A stretch of 64,000 nucleotides of DNA from an uncultured virus (IMG/VR IMGVR_UViG_3300020599_000006) (taxonomy: Duplodnaviria > Heunggongvirae > Uroviricota > Caudoviricetes), in the IMG/VR virus record IMGVR_UViG_3300020599_000006; one strand, given 5' to 3'. Of the stretch, positions 2,529 through 40,861 are shown piece by piece. A program made the position numbers and the translations under genes. Below the pieces are notes generated by a model. The model saw nothing but the letters and a program-made list of their open reading frames with translations. It had not been told where the DNA came from and did not search any database. Within the stretch, counting starts at the first letter, position 1. Every line of letters begins with the position of its first letter.

Positions 2529-2765
2529 ATGAATCGCCGAGACTTCCTCGGCGGGTTGATCAAGACAGCTGCTGCGGTAGCTGTCTTGGGACCCGTTGTG
2601 CTTAAACCGACTGCTGCGGTAGCCGTAGCAACACAAGAGGAACTTGTAGCTGCCTGGAAGGAGCAGATCACGGAAACCCTGATCAATCAACTCCGCGAAT
2701 GCATTTACGATGAGCTACAAAATTCCAACTACCATCGGATGATCGAACAAGGATACCTGAAATGA
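2529..2765 (+). CDS. small protein with twin-arginine-like N-terminus
   Basis: MNRRDFLGG followed by a hydrophobic stretch; stop overlaps the thyA start. Confidence 0.6.
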
Positions 2766-4204
2766 AAGCCTACTTAGATTTGATGCGTCACATTCGAGAC
2801 TTCGGCGTTTTCAAAGAAGATCGGACGGGTACGGGAACCCTCAGTGTGTTTGGCTACCAGATGCGCTTCGATCTAAGCGAGGGTTTTCCCCTCGTTACGA
2901 CCAAGAAGTGCCACCTGAAGTCGATCATCCACGAACTGCTGTGGTTCCTCAAGGGCGAGACCAATGTCCGCTACCTGAAAGAAAACGGCGTCTCCATCTG
3001 GGACGAGTGGGTCGATCCTGATACTGCTGTTTACAAGGAACTCTCTGTCCAAGAACGTCTGGATACCATCAAGAAGTCTGACGAGGCGACGATCGGGAAG
3101 GTCCTCGCATTCTTCAAGAAGTACGAGGGTAACCCCGAGCTGGAAGCGCACGAATACCTGCTGGCCGGTAATCGATACCTGATCAACCGGAACGGCTATG
3201 ACTTCCTGCCGGATTTCCTCGACAAGTGCGGTATCGATGATGAGAAACTGGTCTCTGGTGAACTGGGACCTGTCTACGGCAAGCAATGGCGCTCCTGGCC
3301 GAATCCCACTCGTCCGAAGGAGCTGGAAACCCCCCAGCGTATCGATCTGTGGAACCAACACGCCACGGCCAACTTCCCGTATTCAGGCGAACTGCTGAAG
3401 GAAATGGCCGACATCATCGACGACACGGCCACCAATTTCAAGCCGTGGGTGTTCGCCGACTACTCGAAGAAGGCAGCCCAAGTGTGGGGCTACCAAGAGG
3501 GCATCTCCAAGCTGTTTGCTATCTTCGACGTACCGACACATGTCGTCGATCCGGAAGGTTCCATCGACCAGATCAGCAACCTGATCGACATGCTGAAGAA
3601 TAATCCAGACAGCCGTCGTCTGATCGTTTCGGCCTGGAACCCAGCACAGGTGGACATAATGGCCCTCCCACCTTGCCACTGCCTATTCCAGTTCTACAGT
3701 GCTCCGTTGTCAATTAAGGAGCGCAGCAAGCTCGTCTCGAAGAAGGGTCAGGAGGCGCTTGATCAGTTCGCAGAACACATCTTGGCCGTTCGTGGTCCGG
3801 TAGGTGAGATGAAAGAACTCGATGTAGAAGTTGAGCGGCAGCATCATGAGTTCCTCGACAACATGGGCATTCCGTCCCGTAAGCTTTCCTGCCAACTGTA
3901 CCAACGCAGCATGGACGTTTTCTTAGGTTGCCCCTTCAACATCGCGTCCTACGCGTTGCTAACCATGATGATCGCCCAGGTCACCAATCATGTCGCTGGT
4001 GAGTTCATTCACACCTCTGGGGATACCCATCTCTATTCCAACCATTTGGAACAAGCTGATCTACAATTGTCACGTACGCCGCACAAGCTGCCGACCATGA
4101 AGATCAATCCGGAAGTTACCAATCTCTTCGACTTCCAGTACGAGGACTTCGAGTTGGTGGGTTACGAGTGCGACCCGGCTATCTCTGCCCCGGTGGCGGT
4201 GTGA
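2762..4204 (+). CDS. thyA: thymidylate synthase with three large insertions
   Basis: [35 protein letters not shown], YQRSxD, PFNIASY, GDTHLY motifs; 480 aa. Confidence 0.97.
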
Positions 4205-30240: not shown

Positions 30241-33200
30241 CTACTGAGTCATCCCTACTGGATAAGACTGGCGGATATGTTCCAGAAAGACAGCCGCGCT
30301 GCGCTCCAACGGAACAGAGCTGTGCATCATGCTCTCCAAACTGGTCTCCAGATCAGTCGGGGTATCGATCCCCATGATCGCAGAGACCTGTTCACGGCTC
30401 CACTCCAGGATGTCTTTGGAACGGGTGGAGATGTTCGGGTCTCCCTGAGTATCCAGGAAGCAGTCGAACACGTACACTTGCTCATCCTGACCCAGACGGT
30501 TACAGCGCGAGATCGTCTGATCACGCTCATGGTCCCGAAATGGCGAGTTGAGCATGATGAGGGTGTTGGCCATGATCAGTGGTACGGCAGTCGACAGCGA
30601 TGGGAAGGTGGCAATCAGGGGATTGGTGTCCTCATCTGTCTCGAACTGCCGGATGATAGCGGCCAGGTTCTTGTTGGTATCACCGTACACCAGTACCGGC
30701 TTGTACCCTAACTCCTTCAAGACCTTCTCCGTTTTCTGCACCACTTCCACGTAACTGGTAAAGATGACGGTCTTCTTGACGGAGTTGTCAATGATCTCCT
30801 GGAAAGGGACGTAATCGACCATCTCCAAGTGACAGCGCGAGCGAGCTTTACCCAGAATACCGCCTAATGCCTCACCCATGACCTTCAAGTTGACGTACTT
30901 GATGATGGACCTGACGCTCTTGAACTCTTTCTTGAGCTGATCCGGCAGAGAAGGAATGATTTTCCGCAATTCGTAAGAGTTGCAGAACATCACCTCGACC
31001 TTCATCTCCTTTGGGTCGTAGAACTTACGGATCATTTCCACGTACTTCTTGTACAGTTGGAAATCCCGTTCGTCTTGGCTGTTACGGATCGACTTCTCAT
31101 GCAGCTTCAAGCAGTCGTCGAAAAGGCGTTCATAATCCTTCATGCCCTTGCGATAGAACTCCAGACGCTGTTCGATGAACTTCGTCATGTCCTCACGAAC
31201 CCGTTCCAGTGTGAAGTCCTTCGCGTTAGGCGTCTTGATGTTCACTTCCTTGACAGTGGGCGTGCCATCGACCACTTGTTGCTTCGGTACTTTGAAGGTC
31301 AACAGGCCGATGCGGTTCTGGAGGATATCCAGGGCTCGTTTAGCATCACGACCGTAGATCTTCTTGAAGCGCTCTTCGACATGAGCAGGGAAGTCACCAC
31401 AGATGGTGCGTAGCAGAGGGATACATTCGTAACCCATAGCCTTGATCGGGGTACCCGATGCCCAAAGGATGTTGGTGGACTGGGTCAACTTGCACAGTTC
31501 GATGAAATTCTGGGTTCGTTGAGAGTTGATCTCATTGAAATTGTGCGATTCGTCCAACGCAATGAAGACATCATCGCCCTTTTCTTTAAGGCGCTTAGCC
31601 AAATCCAGTGCCCGATCCAGTGCTTCGTAGTGGAAGACGTAGAAACGCCGCCCTACAGGCGCTGCTTGACCGGGCATATTGGAAATCCAGTAGCTCGGCG
31701 ACTTGGGCATGTTGTACTTGATCGTTGCTTCCCACACCCGCTCGATGGAATTCTTCGGTGCGATGATGATACCGACCTTAACCTTGAGACAAACTGCCAG
31801 GGCGAGGTCGGTGACGGTGTTGTGGGTCACCACGTAGTCATCAATGACAAACAACTTCGATGGGTGCTCCACACTGATGCACACTGCTTCATCAACATCG
31901 ATTGGCTCGATACTCCGAATACGCAGTTTCAGCCCTTTGGAGTACTGGTTTTCCTCCTTAGCTAGCTCCTTCTTACGAGGTAGTCTGAAGCAATCGGCAG
32001 GGCATTTCATCCGAATAGACAGAACATAGTTAAGTCGACCCTGACGACGTTCACCGTTGTGGGTGTAGTGCGGCAGTTTTGTACCAATTCGGCAAATACC
32101 ACCGAGGGACCAGACAAGTTTTTGCACATTCGCAGCCAGCTCAGGACTGCTTGTGCTATAAGTCACACCACCAGCCTTGCCTACAGTTCCATCGGTGTCC
32201 ATCAGACCTTGGAGAAGGGCCAGTCGTTGTTCATGACTACCGTCTAGGTACTCAGGCGGAATGAACTTTTCGAAAGAATAGCTTCCGAACAAATTCATAT
32301 CGCGAATAGCGTTTGTTACCTGGTTGGTTCTAGGTTGGTTCGCTATCCGTTCAGCCACCACTTGATAGTCGACACTATCACGATGTTCAAGTGAGTGTCC
32401 ATTTGGGAGCAACCTCTGTACTTCACTGCGAATGAACTCGTCCGGGGTGCTAAGCATGGTACACGTCCGCATAGAGCCGTCGCCTAGCAATACACCCATT
32501 AGGTAAGGATCGAGCGGAAGGTCTTGGTCCGGACCAATTTCGCTGCGAGCAAGGGGAACGTAAAGCATGTCGTCATTGTCTTTACCAAGAAGACTCATCA
32601 GCTCCTTGGTGTTACGAACCTTCCATTCGTCTCTATTACCGCCATTACGGCGGTTACTCCACCACAGATGATCGGCACAGACGTCAGCCACCCGCCCATC
32701 CCAAAAAGTCACGCGATAGAGTTGTAATTTACCCTGCGGGTAAACACCCGTAACAGCAGTGGCAGTGCCATCAACCGAAATAACTTGGTCACCGATTTTT
32801 AGTTTATCGATCCTGCGCCACCCACCAGGGATTTTCACCCGCGTGTCAGCACGACAGGCCTTACCCGAGCCAGGGGGTGCTGCCAGGAGCATGCCCTTAA
32901 GCTGATACTGCTGGCGGATGCGGTCGTAGGTGTTCAGGAAATCCTTTTGGTGGGGCAGCAGAGGAAAGCCGATCTCATCGAGTTTACTGTAATCCAGGAT
33001 CGACTGGGTGGGAGGCTCCATGATGCCTTTCAACCAAGTCTTTTCCTTAAGCTCCTCGATGATCTTACCGATGGCTCGACGAGAAGTGCGAGTTTTCCTG
33101 TCCTCGTAGAGCTGCTCAAACATGTAGAGCACGTCCACTGCGAAGAATTGGTGGAAAACCACCTTACTGCGCGTGGCTGAGGTGAACATGTTCATGCTGA

Positions 33201-33330
33201 TCCGAGAGGTGGACCAGAAACGTTGGATGTCGTTGAGGATTTCCCAGCCAGGGATACCATCGATGATGATAGACCCCTTCACTTCCTCAACCCGTACAAG
33301 GCCTATTAGCCGTTTAATGCCAGAAAGCAT
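30241..33330 (-). CDS. SNF2-like superfamily 2 helicase with intein
   Basis: LLPHQ, GSGK[intein]T Walker A, LDESH, ASGTP, QTISRCNRLGQ motifs. Confidence 0.9.
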   Translation of the reverse strand: MLSGIKRLIGLVRVEEVKGSIIIDGIPGWEILNDIQRFWSTSRISMNMFTSATRSKVVFHQFFAVDVLYMFEQLYEDRKTRTSRRAIGKIIEELKEKTWLKGIMEPPTQSILDYSKLDEIGFPLLPHQKDFLNTYDRIRQQYQLKGMLLAAPPGSGKACRADTRVKIPGGWRRIDKLKIGDQVISVDGTATAVTGVYPQGKLQLYRVTFWDGRVADVCADHLWWSNRRNGGNRDEWKVRNTKELMSLLGKDNDDMLYVPLARSEIGPDQDLPLDPYLMGVLLGDGSMRTCTMLSTPDEFIRSEVQRLLPNGHSLEHRDSVDYQVVAERIANQPRTNQVTNAIRDMNLFGSYSFEKFIPPEYLDGSHEQRLALLQGLMDTDGTVGKAGGVTYSTSSPELAANVQKLVWSLGGICRIGTKLPHYTHNGERRQGRLNYVLSIRMKCPADCFRLPRKKELAKEENQYSKGLKLRIRSIEPIDVDEAVCISVEHPSKLFVIDDYVVTHNTVTDLALAVCLKVKVGIIIAPKNSIERVWEATIKYNMPKSPSYWISNMPGQAAPVGRRFYVFHYEALDRALDLAKRLKEKGDDVFIALDESHNFNEINSQRTQNFIELCKLTQSTNILWASGTPIKAMGYECIPLLRTICGDFPAHVEERFKKIYGRDAKRALDILQNRIGLLTFKVPKQQVVDGTPTVKEVNIKTPNAKDFTLERVREDMTKFIEQRLEFYRKGMKDYERLFDDCLKLHEKSIRNSQDERDFQLYKKYVEMIRKFYDPKEMKVEVMFCNSYELRKIIPSLPDQLKKEFKSVRSIIKYVNLKVMGEALGGILGKARSRCHLEMVDYVPFQEIIDNSVKKTVIFTSYVEVVQKTEKVLKELGYKPVLVYGDTNKNLAAIIRQFETDEDTNPLIATFPSLSTAVPLIMANTLIMLNSPFRDHERDQTISRCNRLGQDEQVYVFDCFLDTQGDPNISTRSKDILEWSREQVSAIMGIDTPTDLETSLESMMHSSVPLERSAAVFLEHIRQSYPVGMTQ
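31819..32859 (-). mobile_element. intein with LAGLIDADG homing endonuclease (class-3 type), 347 aa
   Basis: GSGK|ACRADTRV...DHLW...LMGVLLGDGS...LLQGLMDTDGT...AVCISV...VVTHN|T; removal restores GSGKT. Confidence 0.92.
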
Positions 33331-33387
33331 GGTATGACCCTTTTGGGATGTGTTAAAATTCATAAGATTTTCTAGCGAGGCCTAACC

Positions 33388-34425
33388 ATGCCAAGCGTTT
33401 CTGAGAAACAGCGCCGTTTCTTCGCCATGGCGCACAAAGACCCGGCTTTTGCCAAGAAAGCGGGCATCGATCCTAAAGTGGCGAAGGAGTTTTACGAGGC
33501 AGACGAGGCATTGACTGAGGAAGAGCGCGAAAAGATCTACAAGGAACACGCCAAGAAGAAGCTGGAGGAGATGGGTGAGAGCGCCTCGGCCGAATCCTTC
33601 ATGGAACTGTGCGAATTCCGCACTGCGTTGGAATCCTTGATGCGCACAGGCCAGACCCTGCTGCAAATACCATCCCTGGAAGACTCGGCGGTCTCTGATT
33701 ACAAAGAAATTGCCAACCAGGTGCTGGCACCGGCAGGTCTGACGGTCGATATTCCTGGCACCATCAGCGGTGTGGACCCCAATACCGATCTGGAAGTAAC
33801 CCTTGAGGCGATTTACCACTATAGCCTCATGACCGAAGACGCCATCCATCGCGCTGTGGGTCTGGAAGCCAAGCATAAGGCTGCATTGGAAAACTTCCAG
33901 ACCATGTTTGGCGATCCTTTCAAGGAATCGGCCAAGATGCCGGCTGTGTCCGGGACGTCTGCTGTTACCCTGAACCCTTTTACGCGTGATCTGTCGCAAT
34001 ATCCAGATGCGAATGCCATTCGCTGGATTGAAGCGCGTAAGAATCTCGATTCCCTCGCCATCCTGCTCAACGGTATCCCGAACATCCCCACGGGTAAGCT
34101 CTCCGGGGACGAGTTCAACGCCGTCAAGCGTCTGGTGAAGGCTACCATGTGCAACATCGGCTTCTACGTCGACGAAGTAGATTACGCCACCGACATTACC
34201 TCGCTCTCCGAGGTGCTGGGACGGGCGATCCAGATCGTCACGGCGAAGATGCAGGCTTCCTGGAAGCCTGGCATGCCAGGTTACGGGATCGAGTCCCTGG
34301 ATCTGAACGAGTACGATAACGAGTACTACGGCTTCTTCTCCAAAGAAGCGGTCATGGCTATGTTTGGCAGTTCTCACACTCGGAAGAAGAACCAGGCAGA
34401 TCAACCCTCAGAAGGAGACGCCTGA
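33388..34425 (+). CDS. probable virion head protein
   Basis: Multiple S/A/G-X-E motifs (ALES, SLED, GLEA, ALEN) like phiKZ prohead protease sites. Confidence 0.55.
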   Translation: MPSVSEKQRRFFAMAHKDPAFAKKAGIDPKVAKEFYEADEALTEEEREKIYKEHAKKKLEEMGESASAESFMELCEFRTALESLMRTGQTLLQIPSLEDSAVSDYKEIANQVLAPAGLTVDIPGTISGVDPNTDLEVTLEAIYHYSLMTEDAIHRAVGLEAKHKAALENFQTMFGDPFKESAKMPAVSGTSAVTLNPFTRDLSQYPDANAIRWIEARKNLDSLAILLNGIPNIPTGKLSGDEFNAVKRLVKATMCNIGFYVDEVDYATDITSLSEVLGRAIQIVTAKMQASWKPGMPGYGIESLDLNEYDNEYYGFFSKEAVMAMFGSSHTRKKNQADQPSEGDA

Positions 34426-34431
34426 TGAACA

Positions 34432-34792
34432 TTGGCGTGGGCGAAGGTTAGCCAAGTCCAAGGAACACGGTAAATAATAATGGCACAATGACACCATTAT
34501 ATGCAGGACTCCACTGTCCTCGTGTTCCTTAACAAATGATCGGTCTCCCTGAACGGACTTTCGAGTCCTGCCACAGGCCACCCCTAAAGCGGGATAACCG
34601 CTCCTAAGTGCTCCTACGACGTTCGAGCACCGCCATCGGAAGTCTGTAGCCTGATCGTTCGGAAAGCGCATTCAGTCATTGGTCCCCTGTCCTTTAACCC
34701 GCGCTAGGCCAACCAGCTACACCTGTCCTTTGGTAACGCACAGCCGTGCACAGCCCACCTCGGTAGGTAACTGCCGAGGTGGGTCTATACCG
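34432..34792 (+). ncRNA. structured non-coding region (putative ncRNA or 3' trailer)
   Basis: AAGGAACACG/CGTGTTCCTT helix enclosing two hairpins; UUCG and GTAA tetraloops; no credible ORF. Confidence 0.55.
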
Positions 34793-34799
34793 CGTCTTC

Positions 34800-35070
34800 T
34801 AATTTGGGAAGCTGCTACTTCCCGAGTCTCTTGTAACTCACCGTGTAAACAAGAGTATTGCCTGCCAGCAACAGTGCTGCGACAACGCCCAACCATTTCC
34901 AGAGGCCGCGTTGCAAAAGCGAACGGTACGACCATTAAACCGCGTTGCCGCGCGGTGGTAAGTTGTGTAGTTAGCAGAGGTTCAACTCTGAGCTAGTGCG
35001 CAGCCTTCATGCATTTGCCCACTGTCCAAAGGACTCTGGTGAAATCCATGAGGGAAGTGCATTGGAGGCA
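34800..35070 (+). ncRNA. structured non-coding region with T-loop-like hairpins
   Basis: Successive hairpins with G-U pairs on + strand; AGAG-GTTCAA-CTCT and TGG-TGAAAT-CCA. Confidence 0.55.
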
Positions 35071-35232
35071 CCGCGATGGAAAGAAGAATAAAAAGCCAAC
35101 ACGACCATCCCGCCTATTACATCCTGGCGATGTTTGTACTGTTCTTCCTGGATGGTCCCACCTCCTTCTATGAACGCGCTGTACCCACCCGGGTCCAGTA
35201 TCCCATGGTTTGTCCCATCCAGGTAACGAAAT

Positions 35233-35514
35233 ATGCCCTCGCCATCGATCATCCAGGTCCCACCCTCAGTCCAGCCCGTGCAGTCGTTCGAGTTCCGTGA
35301 GCCGCTTTATGCTCGCGACGACATCGTCAAGCACTACAAGGGTCAGCACTACCGTGTGATCTTTACGCCGGCTGACGGTTTCCGTACCGAGGCCAGCAAC
35401 GAACCTGCCTATGCGTATTGCAAGGCAGAATCAGCACCCAATCCTACCACGAACCCTATCTGGGTGCGTGTTCAGAACGAGTTCGAAGACACGGCGAAAT
35501 TCATGCCTGTGTAA
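35233..35514 (+). CDS. DUF1653-like protein
   Basis: VKHYKGQHYRV...Y...IWVR...EF motif; start uncertain. Confidence 0.6.
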   Translation: MPSPSIIQVPPSVQPVQSFEFREPLYARDDIVKHYKGQHYRVIFTPADGFRTEASNEPAYAYCKAESAPNPTTNPIWVRVQNEFEDTAKFMPV

Positions 35515-35737
35515 TTTTTTACTGATCATGCCGATGTTTTGAAGGAAGGCAACGGCCAGAATCCTCTACCTGCTCGTCAAGCCTTCCTTCACGCCTTACT
35601 ACCTTCAACGGTCGCTCGGGATGTGGCCAATGCTGGTGGTAAGGCACCTATTCCAGTTTGCTCCAGACGGTTCTTCCCAGTGCGCTCGTTTCCCCCGGCG
35701 ATAGCATCAACTCCTAGCCGTCTGGAGCCCCTACAGT

Positions 35738-35910
35738 GTCACCTTTAGCTCATCGGTAGAGCACTGCTATCCATTTGCTGCGTCGACATGCAGCGAGTCA
35801 GGCCCCGATCTCGATCGGACATGCCTGGCTGTTCGGTTCCCCAGCAATGGGAGAACTGGAAGTCACCGACATGGCAGAGGTAGATGGTTCAATTCCATCA
35901 AGGTGCCCCA
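35738..35910 (+). ncRNA. tRNA-like RNA with ~100-nt structured insertion in the anticodon loop
   Basis: GTCACCTT-TA-GCTC..GGTA-GAGC-A-CTGCT[insert]GGCAG-AGGTA-GATGG-TTCAATT-CCATC-AAGGTGCC-CCA. Confidence 0.8.
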
Positions 35911-36218
35911 ATCTTTACCAGAGCTTGCCAAATGCAGCTCGGGTTTGTGGAGTAAGTGTCACGGCTTTCCTCTCGCCCTGGGAAGCGAGAATCGGCATGA
36001 CATGACGCAGGCTCAGGCCGCTGTCTCCAGAAACAAGTGAACGAGTACCCGCTCCAGTAGCGAGGCCTGGACGAATTAAAGAACTTCTGTTAGAGAAACG
36101 ACATTCAACGAGTACCAGCCGGTGGCTCGAGTGGACGATTAAGGTTGTTCTCGGCGGCCGTTCTAACAGGAATGAGAGTGATTCGGTGTACTCCCCGATG
36201 AGCAAGCCGAGAACGATT

Positions 36219-36380
36219 TTGAGACGATGCCGACGAGTGGCGGAATAGAAACATCGGAATACGCGGGGATCGCATCCCCAGGTAGGAGATATGACTCCGG
36301 CGGCCTGCCTGTTGGTCCCTACGTGGCTTGTGGGTTCGAGCCCCACCTCAGAGAGAACAGGACACTAGGCATCGTCTCAA
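36219..36380 (+). ncRNA. tRNA-Leu-like core enclosed by a 13-bp terminal stem
   Basis: TGGCGGAA...TACGC D-arm-like region; GTGGG-TTCGAGC-CCCAC T arm; TTGAGACGATGCC/GGCATCGTCTCAA closing helix; no CCA. Confidence 0.7.
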
Positions 36381-36388
36381 CTTTTTAT

Positions 36389-36463
36389 TCGCCCTTAGCA
36401 AAGCGGTAATGCGCACGACTGTTAATCGTGTTATCCTAGGTTCGAATCCTAGAGGGCGAGCCA
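36389..36463 (+). tRNA. tRNA-Asn (GTT)
   Basis: Canonical cloverleaf: TCGCCCT/AGGGCGA, CACGA-CTGTTAA-TCGTG, TTCGAAT loop, G-CCA. Confidence 0.95.
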
Positions 36464-36470
36464 TTTCCAT

Positions 36471-36548
36471 GACTCACTTAACTCAGCGGGTAGAGTGCTG
36501 CCTGGCACATGGCAGAAGTCGGTGGTTCAAGTCCATCAGTGAGTCCCA
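36471..36548 (+). tRNA. atypical tRNA with 8-nt anticodon loop (TGGCACAT)
   Basis: GACTCACT/AGTGAGTC-CCA; CTGCC-TGGCACAT-GGCAG; GGTGG-TTCAAGT-CCATC. Confidence 0.75.
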
Positions 36549-36565
36549 ATTTCCATCAGTTCCAT

Positions 36566-36718
36566 GAAATCGCTTAGCTCACCGGTAGAGCGCTGACATA
36601 CTGGTTCGACTCCAGACCTTGCCCCGCCTCCGGGCCACGGCGAGGGTTCCATCCTTCGGGTTGGGACATTCGGTAAACTTGTCAGAGGTACCTGGTTCGA
36701 TTCCAGGAGCGTTTCCCA
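36566..36718 (+). ncRNA. tRNA-like RNA with ~80-nt insertion in the anticodon loop containing a second T arm
   Basis: GCTC..GGTA-GAGC-G-CTGACA[TA-CTGG-TTCGACT-CCAG...]TGTCAG-AGGTA-CCTGG-TTCGATT-CCAGG-AGCGTTTC-CCA. Confidence 0.8.
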
Positions 36719-36725
36719 TTTCCAT

Positions 36726-36794
36726 GACGCATGTAGTTTAGTGGTAAAACGTCGCCCCCTCAATGTGTCACGGGTTCGAGTCCCGTCTGCGTCA
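36726..36794 (+). ncRNA. tRNA-like element lacking an anticodon stem
   Basis: GACGCA/TGCGTC acceptor, GTTT-AGTGGTA-AAAC D arm, ACGGG-TTCGAGT-CCCGT T arm. Confidence 0.65.
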
Positions 36795-36796
36795 TT

Positions 36797-36871
36797 GGCG
36801 CAGTAGCTCAGATGGTAGAGCAATTGAACCACTTGGCGAAGTCACCGGTTCGATTCCGGACATACGTCCCA
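36797..36871 (+). ncRNA. degenerate tRNA-like element
   Basis: TAGCTCAGATGGTAGAGC D arm, CCGG-TTCGATT-CCGG T arm, CCA end; anticodon and acceptor stems poorly paired. Confidence 0.6.
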
Positions 36872-36879
36872 ATCGCGAG

Positions 36880-37164
36880 ACAGTCAGGTCTAACCTGATT
36901 GTATGTGCGCCAGCTGCTGTTTTCCTTGGCGGTTGCTGGCGCCAGTGGTGACTGAGTCTGTCGCGAGACTCGAGAGTCATCACAGCTGGACCCTGCGGCA
37001 ATGTAGCACGGCCGTTGTCGCGGATCGTCCAGCACGCCCTGGCCGTCACTGATGGCCGACCCTGCCGTTGCGCCGGCGAGCCTCCTGGACACACCCCCTG
37101 GGACGGCTCGCCGGCGGCGGCCCCTATTATGGAGCCCCTGCCTAATGGCAGGGGCTTTATGCCG
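36880..37164 (+). ncRNA. run of long GC-rich hairpins ending in a terminator-like element
   Basis: Six consecutive stems then AGCCCCTGCC-TAAT-GGCAGGGGCT-TTATGCCG. Confidence 0.55.
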
Positions 37165-37233
37165 CATTGGTATGTGGAAGACCCCCCCCTTTTATGTACG
37201 CCAACCCAACCATCATTGCAAGGACACTTCTCC

Positions 37234-38709
37234 ATGTCTTTTGATATCCTCAAAGACCTCAAGGCCTCCCTGGAAGAACAGGACACGGCGTACGAGGGTA
37301 CCGACCAAGAACTGGCCTCTGACATCGCTGTCCTCCAGGCGGATGCCAGTGAGGGCACTACGTCCCTTTCCGACGCCCTGGACAAGCAAGCAGAAAGCAC
37401 TGCTCTGGCCGATTCCTTCGACCAACTGGCTACCCGTGCAGAGGAAGTCATTGGCACTGACAACGCTGATGTCGCCATTGAACATCTGGCGTTCGGTCTG
37501 ACCACGTTGATGGCTTCCAAGGGCGTGCAGTACCAAGGGGCTTCCATGGAGTCTCTGACTTCCGTAGCCACCACTGCTCGCACCATGTCCAGTAACGTGC
37601 GTAAAGCGGCTCGTGTCAGTCTGGAAGCCACCTTCCGTGAGGTACAGAACGAGATCGAAGGTACGGTGGACGATACCGTGACCAGCGCGGGTCTGCTGCA
37701 ACAAGCGATTGCTCGTATCGCCAGCAAGGCTAAGGACATCGAAGCCAACGGTGTGGTGCTGAACCACAAGGGCGTCTACCAGTTCCTGCATCGCGATGGC
37801 AAGTCGCTGTCCACGCTCTCGGGTGCCATGGCTGGCGACCTTAAGACCATTAAGGACCTGATCGCTGCAGCCCGCGAGATCAACAGCCAGTACGAGAAAC
37901 TGGCAGACGACATCATCAAGACCGGTGATGACATCAACGGCCTGCGTAAGGTCGTGGCCAGTCTGCTGGCGTTTGACAGCCGTAAAATTCTGACTCGCTT
38001 TGTCGGTGTCAAGACCCTGAACAACGGTTACTTCGAGGTAACCCGCGGGGGCAACATCGGAGAAGATGGCGATTCAATGGACGTCTACCCGCACCTGTAC
38101 TGGGACTACGACATTGTTTCCAGCGATGGCTCCAAAGCCCCGCTCAAAGAGCGCGTATCGGGTGCTCTGAAAGTGGGTGCTGCTGTGGGCATCGTTACCG
38201 GTGCCATCGGCGGAATGGTGGGTAATGTTCCGGGTATCGTTATTGGCGGTATCGGCGGTGCGTTGATGGGTGCCAAGGCGGGTTCTAGCGGTGCCAACCA
38301 CCAACATGCTGGTTCCTTGACTGAGAGTACCACCTCTATCAAGGACATGATCAAGTTCCTGAAGGACATCCAGTCGGCTGCCAAACTCATCTGGGAAGTC
38401 AACAGCCTGCTCGACAGTGCCTATGATGACTCCGCACGGGTGGACAAGCTGTTTGGCATCATGACCCACATCGGTGACATGGACTCCGATGACAGCGTCA
38501 CCAAGTTCCTGCAAGCCTTCTCCAGCGCAATGACTGGCGTATCGGCCAGCTCTCCGGCTGAGACCAGGCTGGACCGTCTGACCACCGTCCTGCATCAGAA
38601 GACCGACGAGATGTACGCCGCCCACATGTCTCTGCTTAACGCGGCCAGCGAGATAGCAGAAACCGCAGTGGACAATGGACTGACCATTGCCCGTACTCTG
38701 CTGAAGTAA
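37234..38709 (+). CDS. phiKZ-like internal head protein
   Basis: Acidic N-terminal region with ASLE, ASME, VSLE motifs; Gly-rich hydrophobic segment; AAGGA RBS. Confidence 0.7.
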   Translation: MSFDILKDLKASLEEQDTAYEGTDQELASDIAVLQADASEGTTSLSDALDKQAESTALADSFDQLATRAEEVIGTDNADVAIEHLAFGLTTLMASKGVQYQGASMESLTSVATTARTMSSNVRKAARVSLEATFREVQNEIEGTVDDTVTSAGLLQQAIARIASKAKDIEANGVVLNHKGVYQFLHRDGKSLSTLSGAMAGDLKTIKDLIAAAREINSQYEKLADDIIKTGDDINGLRKVVASLLAFDSRKILTRFVGVKTLNNGYFEVTRGGNIGEDGDSMDVYPHLYWDYDIVSSDGSKAPLKERVSGALKVGAAVGIVTGAIGGMVGNVPGIVIGGIGGALMGAKAGSSGANHQHAGSLTESTTSIKDMIKFLKDIQSAAKLIWEVNSLLDSAYDDSARVDKLFGIMTHIGDMDSDDSVTKFLQAFSSAMTGVSASSPAETRLDRLTTVLHQKTDEMYAAHMSLLNAASEIAETAVDNGLTIARTLLK

Positions 38710-38761
38710 ACGTCATACAGCGAGGGGAGCAATCCCCTCGCTTATACGGATAGGAGTCAGA

Positions 38762-39166
38762 ATGAAGAACACTACGATTTATAGCGCCCGGCTAGCGTTA
38801 GGCATTTCCACCACTGCGATGGCTGAGAAAATGTGCATTGCTAAGCGCACCTGGGAAGTTTGGGAGAATGGTCAGCGTAAGCCGGATAAACGCACACTGA
38901 TGCAGATTGCCCAACTGATCAACCAGGAGGGTAAACAAGATATTGTTGGTCTGAAGTTTGTGGGTGATGAAAGCGTGACCTATCTTCATCGTCGCCACTT
39001 CATCGAATTGCGTAAACTGGACGATCACCATCGCTGGCTCATGCGGTACGTAGACCTGCGTGCAAGCGAGCACGGTCAACCCGATCCACGTATCTGTGAG
39101 TGCATGTTGTCAGAAGTTGTTCAAGCCGATGCTGACGTCTTGGAAGTTGTTATGAACTGGAGTTAA
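38762..39166 (+). CDS. XRE-type HTH protein
   Basis: ARLALGIS...MAEKMCIAKRTWEVWENGQRKP. Confidence 0.7.
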   Translation: MKNTTIYSARLALGISTTAMAEKMCIAKRTWEVWENGQRKPDKRTLMQIAQLINQEGKQDIVGLKFVGDESVTYLHRRHFIELRKLDDHHRWLMRYVDLRASEHGQPDPRICECMLSEVVQADADVLEVVMNWS

Positions 39167-40775: not shown

Positions 40776-40861
40776 GCCTGGGTCGCATAGCGGCCGATTG
40801 CACCTGATTCGTAATCAGGACCCGTAAGGGCACGTGGGTTCGAATCCCACCCCAGGCTCCA
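40776..40861 (+). tRNA. tRNA-Thr (CGT) with long variable arm
   Basis: GCCTGGG/CCCAGGC, CCTGA-TTCGTAA-TCAGG, CCC-GTAA-GGG variable arm, TTCGAAT loop, T-CCA. Confidence 0.88.

What the first reader, a model, noticed from the sequence alone, without database searches (positions are those of the whole stretch)
35540..37164. Array of tRNA-mimic RNAs with conserved elbows but remodelled anticodon and acceptor arms
Seen: within about 1.6 kb only tRNA-Asn is canonical. Six other units keep D arms and TTCRA T arms but alter the decoding or acceptor end. These are a ~100-nt insert (35738), an ~80-nt insert (36566), an 8-nt loop (36471), no proper anticodon stem (36726, 36797), and a core sealed in a 13-bp helix (36219). 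The inserts are themselves well paired, which random decay would not produce. Established: host anticodon nucleases (PrrC, RloC, PARIS AriB, retron-linked PtuAB) cleave tRNAs during infection, and phage tRNAs can counter this. Inference: a phage RNA system that uses tRNA scaffolds, matured by host enzymes, to display novel domains as decoys, sponges or ribosome/EF-Tu ligands.
Basis: partly seen in the sequence, partly recalled or inferred. Interest (0 to 1): 0.88.

Follow-up and report, generated by a model that had tools for sequence, protein, structure and literature searches.

The report
Phage tRNA frames carrying extra domains
A giant phage carries a row of tRNA-shaped RNA genes whose anticodon loop is split open and filled with extra folded RNA, in one case a second tRNA-shaped body, so they most likely imitate tRNAs rather than read codons.

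Summary
The 1.7-kb gene-free stretch 35540-37170 of this jumbo-phage window holds 8 T-loop motifs (0.69 expected in the whole window). Only one tRNA in it (Asn) is fully canonical.

I changed the parsing. The two "stemless" units at 36726 and 36797 are the halves of one 146-nt nested RNA. An outer tRNA frame ends in CCA. Its anticodon loop is replaced by a circularly permuted, YrlA-like tRNA module.

This nested fold recurs in three other jumbo phages. In the alignment 95% of cells pair, and 24 of 39 pairs change on both sides. A tandem reading fails, with its acceptor helices 36-43% paired.

Units at 35738 and 36566 are paralogous frames with other inserts. In 13 of 13 insert-bearing units from five phages the insert follows position 33. 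The next three bases read NAC (valine-type, 9 units) or CAT (4 units).

No Rfam family reaches its threshold (YrlA 48 bits against 69). Complete relatives lack a Ro60 gene. Contigs from RNA libraries lie on the cluster.

The most likely reading is non-decoding, tRNA-Val-derived mimics matured like tRNAs. Their function is untested. Splicing remains possible for unit 35738.

This scan has noted the same kind of RNA before on other DNA. My paper searches found no published description.

The parts
35540..35737 (+). Structured leader segment of the cluster. It has three long hairpins, including 35540-35550/35581-35591 and 35660-35670/35718-35728. It is not tRNA-like.
   Evidence: MFE -86.7 kcal/mol, z -7.26, 0 of 200 shuffles. 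Inverted repeats I4 and I5. RNA-library contigs start at 35554, 35564 and 35603.
35738..35910 (+). Unit U1: a tRNA frame with a 97-nt insert (35772-35868) after A32-U33. The insert folds into three hairpins plus a mini-hairpin. GAC-AT precedes the 3' strand of the stem, and the unit ends C73-CCA.
   Evidence: ARAGORN -i reads Val(cac) with a 97-nt intron. The MFE fold reproduces the acceptor, D arm, extended stem and T arm, z -3.56. Triplet table. Its 3' half is paralogous to the units at 36472 and 36566.
36219..36380 (+). Unit closed by a perfect 13-bp helix, holding one T arm (GGTTCGAGCCC at 36333-36343). Its inner fold is not resolved.
   Evidence: Inverted repeat I1. T loop. z only -1.40. 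No homologue found by blastn-short among 8 loci. RNA-library contigs lie at 36193-36412 and 36144-36375.
36389..36463 (+). Canonical tRNA-Asn(GTT).
   Evidence: ARAGORN. Rfam tRNA 67.3 bits.
36472..36548 (+). tRNA-like unit with an 8-nt loop TGGCACAT on a perfect 5-bp stem. It is a paralogue of U1 without the insert. It carries CAC-AT, G-1 and C73-CCA, and no G3:U70.
   Evidence: ARAGORN 'Ala(ggc)' needs a stem with two G.T pairs and a C.A mismatch. Rfam tRNA 49.7 bits. 77% identical to the 3' half of U1. Triplet table.
36566..36718 (+). Unit U4: a tRNA frame with a 76-nt insert after A32-U33. The insert holds an inner T arm (36601-36615), an extended 7-bp hairpin and a UUCG hairpin in the D-arm position. 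AAC-TT follows, and the unit ends C73-CCA.
   Evidence: ARAGORN -i. The MFE fold reproduces all these helices, z -1.93. Triplet table. Its D arm is 91% identical to that of U1.
36726..36871 (+). Unit N1: nested double tRNA.
- Outer acceptor 36727-36733/36861-36867
- Outer D arm 36736-36750
- Stem 1 36752-36756/36835-36839
- Stem 2 36761-36764/36823-36826
- Inner T arm 36770-36786
- Inner closed acceptor-like hairpin 36787-36803
- Inner D arm 36806-36821
- CAC 36830-36832
- Outer T arm 36844-36860
- CCA 36869-36871
   Evidence: ARAGORN -i reads 'Glu(ctc)' with a 71-nt intron. YrlA model 48.1 bits on 36749-36845. Model R1/R2 finds homologues at 111-137 bits. 95.2% of cells paired and 24 of 39 pairs covarying. 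The tandem model fails.
36872..37170 (+). GC-rich, very strongly structured 3' segment of the cluster, ending in a 15-bp hairpin (about 37127-37158) followed by TTTAT. It has the deepest RNA-library contigs.
   Evidence: MFE -178.8 kcal/mol, z -10.39. Contigs 36874-37087 (depth 13.8) and 36883-37094 (depth 26.1). No Rfam match better than 18.7 bits.

Best explanation
The gene-free stretch 35540-37170 is a phage cluster of stable non-coding RNAs on the + strand. Its core is a family of tRNA-Val-derived frames.

**Shown**
- Each frame keeps what tRNA-processing enzymes read: a 7-bp acceptor stem, D and T arms able to form the elbow, and an encoded N73-CCA end.
- The anticodon loop is split after position 33 and filled with a folded module.
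- In unit N1 (36726-36871) the module is a circularly permuted tRNA body: T arm, closed acceptor-like hairpin, D arm. This is the layout of the tRNA-like domain of the Y RNA YrlA. The RNA therefore has two tRNA elbows joined tail to tail through the two anticodon-type stems.
- U4 (36566) has a partly tRNA-like module. U1 (35738) has three plain hairpins. The unit at 36472 has only one extra base.
- The nested pairing is conserved and covaries in other jumbo phages.

**Inferred**
- The units are cut out by RNase P and 3' processing like tRNAs, and persist as stable RNAs.
- They cannot decode. Most lack U33 or a purine at position 37, and none has a 7-nt loop.
- They act as tRNA mimics that occupy tRNA-binding proteins.
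- The conserved A35-C36 after the insert, together with CCA and C73/G-1, suggests that ValRS (or HisRS) may still recognise them, as it does plant-virus tRNA-like structures.
For: **Architecture**
- ARAGORN with introns allowed finds three tRNA frames with 97-, 74- and 71-nt inserts.
- MFE folds of U1 and U4 reproduce the frame and the insert helices unaided.

**Conservation of the nested fold**
- A model built from N1 finds full-length matches in three other phage records. They are IMG/VR contig L017 (two units, 88.5 and 73.6 bits), contig L028 (67.4) and Burkholderia phage FLC9 (63.8).
- After rebuilding the model these score 111-137 bits. The best pair of ordinary neighbouring tRNAs scores 59.7.
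- On the 5-sequence alignment 95.2% of cells pair, against 36.6-47.6% when the 3' partners are slid.
- 24 of 39 pairs change on both sides, against 2-7 when slid. The covariation score is 0.690 against at most 0.169, and 0 of 500 shuffles reach it.
- The outer acceptor covaries at 6 of 7 pairs, stem 1 at 4 of 5 and the inner hairpin at 3 of 5.

**Rival topology**
- With each half given its own acceptor, those helices are 42.9% and 35.5% paired. Complementarity is 6-7 of 7 nested against 3-5 of 7 tandem.

**Simple-insert frames**
- FLC9, FLC4-3B and FLC1-1B share a frame in which 3 of 5 stem pairs are compensated.

**Insert position and triplet**
- In 13 of 13 units the insert follows position 33. 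The next triplet is NAC in 9 of 9 units from the window and the FLC phages, and CAT in 4 of 4 from L017/L028.
- Position 37 is a pyrimidine in 10 of 13.
- A35 and C36 are the bacterial valine identity set (Table 1 and the valine section of PMC9976931, passages seen).

**Known families**
- No known family fits. At gathering thresholds Rfam gives only tRNA. YrlA scores 48.1 bits against a cut-off of 69.

**RNA libraries**
- Contigs from three soil metatranscriptome libraries lie at 99% identity or more on 35554-36412 and 36874-37094.
- A contig from a 90-95% relative (36771-36953) carries six changes inside N1. By my mapping these keep stem 1 paired through G.U and turn the A.A mismatch of the outer T stem into T-A.

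**Family growth**
- U1, the unit at 36472 and U4 are paralogues (77% and 62% in the 3' half, 91% in the D arm) separated by a repeated spacer CATTTCCATGA. The family therefore grew by duplication with different inserts.
Against: - No transcript ends, processing sites, modifications or charging were observed. Contigs cannot show them, and an RNA library can hold DNA.
- Covariation rests on 5 sequences from about 4 lineages (two are close relatives), in an alignment fitted to the model.
- For N1 alone the thermodynamic optimum is another fold: -47.8 against -35.7 kcal/mol for the nested one.
- Removing the insert of U1 gives a flawless anticodon loop A-U-GAC-A-U.
- The FLC9 array has no ordinary tRNA-Val among ARAGORN's 8 calls. 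Both points would also fit interrupted tRNA-Val genes.
- Valine acceptor determinants are mostly missing. There is no A73, and G3-C70 occurs only in N1 (read off).
- The sealed unit 36219-36380 has neither a significant fold nor a homologue.
- The tertiary 15:48 pair supports the swapped elbows only weakly: 8 of 10 nested against 4 of 10 tandem, with two rows not independent.
Confidence: 0.6

Rival explanations
1. They are interrupted tRNA-Val (and, in the L017 group, tRNA-Met/Ile) genes. The inserts are introns of an unknown small type, placed between positions 33 and 34. They are removed by an endonuclease, the exons are joined by an RNA ligase, and the products decode.
For: - The insert sits at exactly the same position in 13 of 13 units. 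The next triplets are GAC, CAC and AAC, three of the four valine anticodons.
- U1 would become a flawless loop A-U-GAC-A-U.
- FLC9 encodes RtcB.
- ARAGORN calls no ordinary tRNA-Val in the window or in the FLC9 array.
Against: - After removal, 10 of 13 units would have a pyrimidine at position 37 and 7 of 13 would lack U33.
- A34 (AAC) is, as far as I recall, not a bacterial valine anticodon.
- The inserts are 35-97 nt, which I recall to be well below the size of known group I introns.
- No intron or self-cleaving ribozyme family appears among the 14 Rfam matches at E up to 10.
- By inspection the two loop strands face each other (4 x 8 nt in N1). That is not a bulge-helix-bulge.
- RtcB is absent from the complete L017 genome, from the incomplete L028 record (69%) and from both Ralstonia phages (0 of 5 records, which also covers BONAISHI).
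- The inner module is itself under selection: its helices covary. A spacer to be discarded would not need that.
Confidence: 0.15
2. N1 and its relatives are true Y RNAs (YrlA). They would be partners of a Ro60/Rsr protein of the phage or the host, tethering it to a nuclease for structured-RNA decay, with a tRNA body grafted on.
For: - The YrlA model matches 36749-36845 end to end at 48.1 bits, E 4.6e-9.
- The order T arm, closed acceptor-like stem-loop, D arm is the YrlA layout (PMC4201824, passages).
- Phages do carry YrlA-like modules next to Ro60-type genes. Vibrio phage BONAISHI has two modules beside a TROVE-domain gene. Microbacterium phage FuzzBuster has one beside a 'Ro-like RNA binding protein'.
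Against: - The score is below the gathering cut-off of 69 bits.
- The paper itself warns that dimeric tRNAs can be false positives.
- No TROVE domain was found in the 58 of 89 window ORFs scanned, which include all ORFs of 300 aa or more that PHROGs left unassigned.
- None was found in FLC9 or in the complete L017 genome, L028, FLC4-3B and FLC1-1B (0 of those 4).
- The GNCGAAN0-1G motif occurs once, at 36835, on the wrong (3') strand. It is not kept in the four homologues.
- The Ro-binding helix is replaced by a tRNA body.
Confidence: 0.1
3. They are decaying or recombined remnants of an ordinary tRNA array: pseudogenes, or two separate stemless tRNA-like RNAs with no joint fold and no function.
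For: - Phage tRNA arrays grow by duplication, and the units here are paralogues with a repeated spacer.
- In N1 the first half can also pair with itself, 5 of 7 by my count. Rfam calls 36727-36793 a tRNA at 33.2 bits.
- The sealed unit and U4 fold no better than many shuffles.
Against: - The nested helices are kept through changes on both sides in phages whose proteins are about 44% identical to the window's.
- The self-acceptor model is at chance level.
- The frames keep CCA ends and the NAC triplet while the inserts differ completely.
- RNA-library contigs lie on the cluster.
Confidence: 0.05

Closest known systems
YrlA, the tRNA-like bacterial and phage Y RNA (Rfam RF02553; Chen et al. 2014, PMC4201824, passages read)
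   Same: The inner module of N1 has the same permuted order, with canonical T and D loops: T arm, closed acceptor-like stem-loop, D arm, closed by a stem. The YrlA model aligns to it end to end. M. smegmatis YrlA, which has a 7-bp acceptor-like stem, is cut by RNase P and receives CCA. The 7-bp inner hairpins of the L017, L028 and FLC9 units could therefore be cut too.
   Different: The score is below the family cut-off. There is no Ro60/TROVE gene nearby or in complete relatives, and no conserved Ro-binding motif. Where YrlA has its Ro-binding helix and free ends, this RNA continues into a complete second tRNA frame with its own acceptor stem and CCA.
Valine-accepting tRNA-like structures at the 3' ends of plant RNA virus genomes (TLS-Val, e.g. 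TYMV; review PMC9976931, passages read)
   Same: Both are non-decoding viral tRNA mimics. Both keep a valine-type CAC triplet with A35-C36 and a CCA end, have A73 or C73, and can form an N-1:N73 pair. The window units N1, 36472 and U1 have G-1 and C73.
   Different: TLS-Val are part of an RNA genome and build the acceptor arm with a pseudoknot. They have an intact pseudo-anticodon loop and no second domain. Here the RNAs are separate genes of a DNA phage with ordinary acceptor stems and a split loop. Charging is untested.
Phage T4 species 1 and 2 RNAs (rnaC, rnaD)
   Same: They are small stable RNAs of unknown function encoded inside a phage tRNA gene cluster (annotation). rnaC ends with a T arm followed by an acceptor-type strand (my reading). 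A passage of PMC9697503 calls them RNAs 'of yet unknown functions'.
   Different: There is no detectable homology: model R1 gives 16.4 bits on rnaC with filters off. They show no nested second tRNA body and no NAC triplet layout.
Engineered 'tRNA scaffold' for expressing recombinant RNA in E. coli
   Same: Both share the design principle: a foreign structured RNA is placed in the anticodon stem of a tRNA. The chimera is then processed and protected like a tRNA.
   Different: That is a laboratory construct. Here the design is natural, conserved and paralogously expanded.
Circularly permuted tRNA genes of the red alga Cyanidioschyzon merolae (recalled; only a search listing of PMC9602550, a related paper on atypical C. 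merolae tRNA introns, was seen)
   Same: The 3' half (T arm, acceptor 3' strand) precedes the 5' half (acceptor 5' strand, D arm) in the gene.
   Different: Those are matured through a circular intermediate into normal decoding tRNAs. Here the permuted body has no anticodon loop and sits inside another tRNA frame.

Membership tests
Canonical tRNA (RF00005) | 7-bp acceptor stem, D arm, T arm with GTTCRANYC loop, N73-CCA | tested here: met
   ARAGORN -i drawings for U1, U4 and N1. There are 8 T loops. The 3' tails end in CCA.
Canonical tRNA (RF00005) | 5-bp anticodon stem closed by a 7-nt loop with U33 and a purine at 37 | tested here: not met
   The loops hold 71-97 extra nt in U1, U4 and N1, and 1 extra nt in the unit at 36472. 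N1 has C33 and T37, and U4 has T37. Default ARAGORN rejects U1, U4 and N1.
YrlA Y RNA (RF02553) | Score at or above the curated gathering cut-off (69 bits) | tested here: not met
   48.1 bits on 36749-36845. No YrlA hit at gathering level in the window or in 20 related loci.
YrlA Y RNA (RF02553) | tRNA-like domain in the order T arm, closed acceptor-like stem-loop, D arm | tested here: met
   N1 36770-36821. The order is conserved in 5 of 5 aligned sequences, and the hairpin covaries at 3 of 5 pairs.
YrlA Y RNA (RF02553) | Encoded next to a Ro60/Rsr (TROVE) gene | tested here: not met
   No TROVE domain in the 58 window ORFs scanned. None in FLC9 or in the four records carrying these frames (L017, L028, FLC4-3B, FLC1-1B). 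The rest of the window's own genome is not held.
YrlA Y RNA (RF02553) | Ro-binding helix with the GNCGAAN0-1G motif on its 5' strand | tested here: not met
   The motif occurs once in 35500-37250, at 36835. That is on the 3' strand of stem 1, and it is absent from the four homologues.
Group I intron in a tRNA anticodon loop | Match to the group I catalytic core | tested here: not met
   No intron family among the 14 Rfam matches at E up to 10 on 35000-37600. The inserts are 35-97 nt. That known group I introns are much longer is recalled, not tested.
Archaeal/eukaryal protein-spliced tRNA intron | Bulge-helix-bulge motif at the exon-intron borders, usually at 37/38 | tested here: not met
   By inspection of the N1 structure, the two loop strands (4 and 8 nt) face each other between stems 1 and 2. 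The insert lies at 33/34 in 13 of 13 units. A splicing endonuclease gene was not searched for.
tmRNA | tRNA-like domain plus a tag-peptide reading frame | tested here: not met
   ARAGORN -m finds 0 genes in 35001-37600. No tmRNA match in Rfam.
Viral valine-accepting tRNA-like structure (works like, not a member) | A35-C36 in a pseudo-anticodon position and a CCA 3' end | tested here: met
   NAC in 4 of 4 window units and 9 of 9 units with the FLC phages. The window units all end in CCA. Identity set taken from PMC9976931.
Viral valine-accepting tRNA-like structure (works like, not a member) | Valylation by ValRS | not testable with these tools
   This needs an aminoacylation assay.

The most novel reading that the evidence does not exclude
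The nested units are two-headed, chargeable tRNA mimics. The outer frame is matured to a CCA end. It is recognised by ValRS (or HisRS) through the retained A35-C36 and the G-1:C73 pair.

RNase P also cuts the 7-bp inner hairpin, as it does in M. smegmatis YrlA. The product would be a two-strand, domain-swapped double tRNA with two acceptor ends and no anticodon. The phage would use it to capture or bridge tRNA-binding host proteins, such as synthetase, EF-Tu or tRNA-cleaving defence nucleases.
Probability: 0.12. Interest if true: 0.9.

Novelty: new variant of a known kind. Interest (0 to 1): 0.72.

Why it matters
Phage tRNA arrays are usually read as codon-usage aids or as spare parts against anticodon nucleases. 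This cluster shows that part of such an array can be a family of RNAs that keep the tRNA outline but cannot decode.

One member joins two tRNA bodies tail to tail. This is a natural counterpart of the laboratory tRNA scaffold, and a link between tRNAs and Y RNAs.

The design is conserved in cultured phages (Burkholderia phage FLC9, Ralstonia phages FLC4-3B and FLC1-1B). It can therefore be tested at the bench.

The retained valine-type triplet gives a concrete first experiment: charging and synthetase binding. Standard annotation misses these genes or mislabels them, for example as 'tRNA-Ala'.

Tried and rejected
**Searches for relatives of the window phage**
- Megablast of 12 kb found nothing.
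- blastn of the 2.1-kb region found one 61-nt tRNA match.
- The search for related loci with two flanking proteins found none.
- An alignment of five paralogous virion proteins was too divergent to search with.
- blastn-short of 35500-37250 against 8 related loci found only T-arm and D-arm words, plus a 13-nt match at 37154-37166 with E 0.62.

**Pattern scans**
- Three scans found few units of the nested kind: viral contigs gave 7 and 7 stretches, and metagenomes gave 117 stretches with 80 loci read.
- Of the 80 metagenome loci, 2 scored 60 bits or more with R1. L098 is the same contig as L028. L111 belongs to a different RNA with two modules.
- 30 of the 80 have a 7-bp hairpin between T arm and D arm. 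By eye they look like free YrlA-type modules.
- L016 and L019 turned out to be tandem repeats with identical acceptor stems. They say nothing about nesting.
- Model R1 over five whole phage records found no further nested unit outside the arrays.

**RNA-library contigs with no cover**
- No RNA-library contig lay on 34000-35553, on 36413-36770, or on most of 37095-39000. One 173-nt contig lay at 37805-37977. The DNA run covered all 30 bins.

**Weak or failed tests**
- The 15:48 tertiary pair gave only weak support for the nested model.
- The GNCGAAN0-1G motif at 36835 is at chance level and not conserved.
- Sigma-70 promoter scan found 0 sites. The terminator scan found 2, both on the minus strand, no more than in shuffles.
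- Valine acceptor-stem determinants (A73, G3-C70, U4-A69) are not kept in the window units, read off.
- T4 rnaC/rnaD show no homology.
- The ORF downstream of the YrlA-like module in L014 looked Ro60-like by eye. I did not test it.
Full report
**Context.** The window is part of a jumbo phage.
- It holds eight paralogues of a virion protein family (phrog_1037), a helicase/primase, an NAD-dependent DNA ligase and tail fibre genes.
- The nearest record in the phage collection is Burkholderia phage FLC9, at 44% protein identity. SPN3US-like phages follow at 33%.
- There is no nucleotide-level match, and no whole genome is held.
- The finding lies in a 1.7-kb stretch without a credible ORF. It sits between a 93-aa ORF ending at 35514 and a gene starting near 37234, both on the + strand.

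**The observation.**
- Default ARAGORN sees only tRNA-Asn and a 'tRNA-Ala(ggc)' in the stretch. Rfam adds a weak tRNA at 36727-36793.
- The T-loop word GGTTCRANYCC occurs 8 times within 35886-36857, against 0.69 expected for the whole 64 kb.
- With introns allowed, ARAGORN reads three long tRNA frames. They are 35739-35910 with 97 extra bases, 36568-36718 with 74, and 36727-36871 with 71.
- The 13-bp helix around 36219-36380 is exact.
- The 'Ala' unit has no G3:U70. Its best stem, CTGCC/GGCAG, leaves an 8-base loop.

**Re-parsing the two 'stemless' units.**
- ARAGORN's third frame joins the 5' acceptor strand and D arm of the unit at 36726 to the T arm and 3' acceptor strand of the unit at 36797.
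- The '71-nt intron' is the T arm of the first unit, a hairpin, and the D arm of the second.
- That inner part is what the Rfam YrlA model matches: 36749-36845, 48.1 bits, E 4.6e-9, against a cut-off of 69.
- YrlA is a Y RNA whose tRNA-like domain has this same permuted order (PMC4201824, passages).
- The 146-nt RNA N1 (36726-36871) would therefore be a tRNA frame whose anticodon loop is replaced by a permuted tRNA body. It would have two elbows joined tail to tail through a 5-bp stem 1, a 4 x 8 internal loop and a 4-bp stem 2.
- Thermodynamics alone does not decide. The nested fold costs -35.7 kcal/mol and the optimum is -47.8.

**Comparative test.**
- FLC9 has the same odd units in its tRNA array.
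- I built a covariance model from N1 and my structure. It found full-length matches in an IMG/VR contig of 278 kb (L017, two units, 88.5 and 73.6 bits), in a 186-kb contig (L028, 67.4 bits) and in FLC9 (63.8 bits).
- On the 5-sequence alignment 95.2% of cells pair, against 36.6-47.6% when the partners are slid.
- 24 of 39 pairs change on both sides, against 2-7 when slid. The covariation score is 0.690 against at most 0.169, and no shuffle of 500 reaches the observed values.
- The helices that exist only in the nested topology carry the signal: outer acceptor 6 of 7 pairs, stem 1 4 of 5, stem 2 4 of 4 (unpaired in FLC9), inner hairpin 3 of 5.
- The rival topology gives each half its own acceptor stem. 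Those helices are then 42.9% and 35.5% paired, which is chance level.
- Caveats: there are five sequences from about four lineages, and the alignment is fitted to the model.
- The rebuilt model separates nested units (111-152 bits) from the best pair of ordinary neighbouring tRNAs (59.7 bits). It does not separate U1, U4, FLC9's second nested unit or L017's first (40-59 bits).
- The family is rare in what I could scan: 7 + 7 viral stretches and 80 metagenome loci yielded no further lineage. Whole-record scans found no copies outside the arrays.

**The other units.**
- U1 and U4 fold, unaided, into the tRNA frame plus their inserts.
- U4's insert starts with a canonical T arm, then an extended 7-bp hairpin, then a UUCG hairpin where the D arm would be. 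U1's insert is three plain hairpins.
- U1, the unit at 36472 and U4 are paralogues. Their 3' halves are 77% and 62% identical, the D arms of U1 and U4 are 91% identical, and a spacer CATTTCCATGA recurs three times.
- FLC9 and the Ralstonia phages FLC4-3B and FLC1-1B share a frame with a 35-39-nt hairpin insert capped by a GNRA loop in the two Ralstonia phages. Between FLC9 and the Ralstonia phages, 3 of 5 pairs of the anticodon-type stem are compensated.
- The sealed unit 36219-36380 has a T arm, but I could not resolve its fold (z -1.40) or find a relative.

**A shared rule.**
I therefore tabulated 13 units from five phages.
- In all 13 the extra RNA begins after position 33 of the frame.
- The three bases that follow it, five bases before the 3' strand of the stem, are NAC in 9 of 9 units from the window and the FLC phages. 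In the window these are GAC, CAC, AAC and CAC. They are CAT in 4 of 4 units from L017/L028.
- A35 and C36 are the anticodon determinants of bacterial valine identity. CAU is the methionine set (PMC9976931, Table 1 and valine section).
- Position 37 is a pyrimidine in 10 of 13 units, and U33 is absent in 7 of 13.
- The frames therefore descend from tRNA-Val (or tRNA-Met/Ile) and keep the synthetase-recognised bases. Most could not decode even if the insert were removed.
- The same review notes that plant-virus valine-accepting tRNA-like structures have CAC, A73 or C73, and an N-1:N73 pair. The window units have C73, and three of them have G at -1 (and the sequence).
- This resemblance is a lead, not a test.

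**Is it a Y RNA?**
- True phage YrlA-type modules lie next to Ro60-type genes. Vibrio phage BONAISHI has two beside a TROVE-domain gene. Microbacterium phage FuzzBuster has one beside a 'Ro-like RNA binding protein'.
- The phages with nested units differ. No TROVE domain was found in FLC9, in the complete L017 genome, in L028, or in the two Ralstonia phages. None was found in the 58 window ORFs scanned.
- The Ro-binding motif is not conserved.
- RtcB occurs only in FLC9.

**Expression.**
- Twenty public runs hold part of the stretch, three of them recorded as RNA.
- Contigs of three soil metatranscriptome libraries lie at 99% identity or more on 35554-36412 and on 36874-37094. The libraries carry three study codes but share year and habitat, so they may be one campaign. 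The second stretch has the highest depths, 13.8 and 26.1.
- One contig from a relative, 90-95% alike, spans 36771-36953. Its six changes inside N1 keep stem 1 paired and repair the A.A mismatch of the outer T stem, by my mapping.
- Contigs show presence in an RNA library. They do not show ends, strand or processing.

**Literature.**
- Five full-text searches listed no paper whose title or abstract start describes a tRNA frame carrying a permuted tRNA or other domain in a phage.
- The passages read in five papers did not describe one either.
- T4's RNAC and RNAD, which lie in the T4 tRNA cluster, are still 'of yet unknown functions'. They are not homologous.
- This scan has noted the same kind of RNA at least six times on other DNA. 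One of those notes partly fell on a later check, and I do not know which part.

**Verdict.**
- The structure is real, conserved and not a member of any described family.
- The most likely role is a set of non-decoding tRNA-Val-derived mimics matured like tRNAs.
- The specific target (synthetase, EF-Tu, defence nuclease, Ro60) is open.
- Splicing of U1-type units into tRNA-Val is not excluded.

Noticed in passing
window 36872-37170: This is a 299-nt GC-rich run of long hairpins directly after the CCA of N1. It is extremely stable (z -10.39) and has the deepest RNA-library contigs of the cluster (36874-37087, 36883-37094). It has no Rfam match and no look-alike in earlier notes. It may be a separate abundant RNA.
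   Followed up: partly
window 35540-35737: The cluster begins with three long hairpins with perfect 11-bp arms (z -7.26). RNA-library contigs begin at 35554-35603.
   Followed up: partly
window 36462-36472, 36557-36567, 36717-36727: The spacer CATTTCCATGA (one copy CAGTTCCATGA) recurs before three units. Its G is the -1 base that could pair with C73 in N1 and in the unit at 36472.
   Followed up: partly
window 36040-36052 and 36107-36119: There are two copies of AACGAGTACC[C/A]GC, 67 nt apart, in the spacer between U1 and the sealed unit. They appear to be part of a repeated hairpin motif of about 45 nt.
   Followed up: no
window 40776-40861: A tRNA-Thr(CGT) of 86 nt has a paired extra arm in the variable region. 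As far as I recall this is unusual for a threonine tRNA.
   Followed up: no
window 2762-4204: This thymidylate synthase ORF is 480 aa, and the Pfam domain matches in two stretches around a large insert. The insert may be an intein or another inserted domain.
   Followed up: no
window 30241-33363 (- strand): This 1040-aa helicase/primase-like ORF holds a LAGLIDADG_3 domain at residues 378-429, which suggests an intein.
   Followed up: no
loci L080, L113, L117, L111, L093, L099, L074, L075, L102 (metagenome contigs): This is a conserved non-coding region with two consecutive 'T arm, hairpin, D arm' modules. A third tRNA-like piece follows, upstream of a gene starting MKRVTINTNYVGLVFK... At gathering level Rfam gives only partial tRNA hits. 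It may be a multi-module tRNA-like RNA of bacteria.
   Followed up: partly
L162 1983-2119 and 2172-2308 (Vibrio phage BONAISHI, MH595538.1): Two unannotated YrlA-like modules lie directly upstream of ORF49c, which is annotated 'RNA binding protein' and carries a TROVE domain.
   Followed up: partly
L017 1019-1189: In the first nested unit of this contig, the inner permuted body also has a complete anticodon-type arm (ccagg-tgtaaaa-gcctgg, GTA like tRNA-Tyr) and a type II D arm. The link to the outer frame therefore sits at the variable-arm position.
   Followed up: partly
window 37154-37166; L160 2376-2388; L161 2378-2390: The 13-nt word GCTTTATGCCGCA ends the non-coding cluster in the window and in both Ralstonia phages (E 0.62, may be chance). 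It could be a promoter of the next gene.
   Followed up: no
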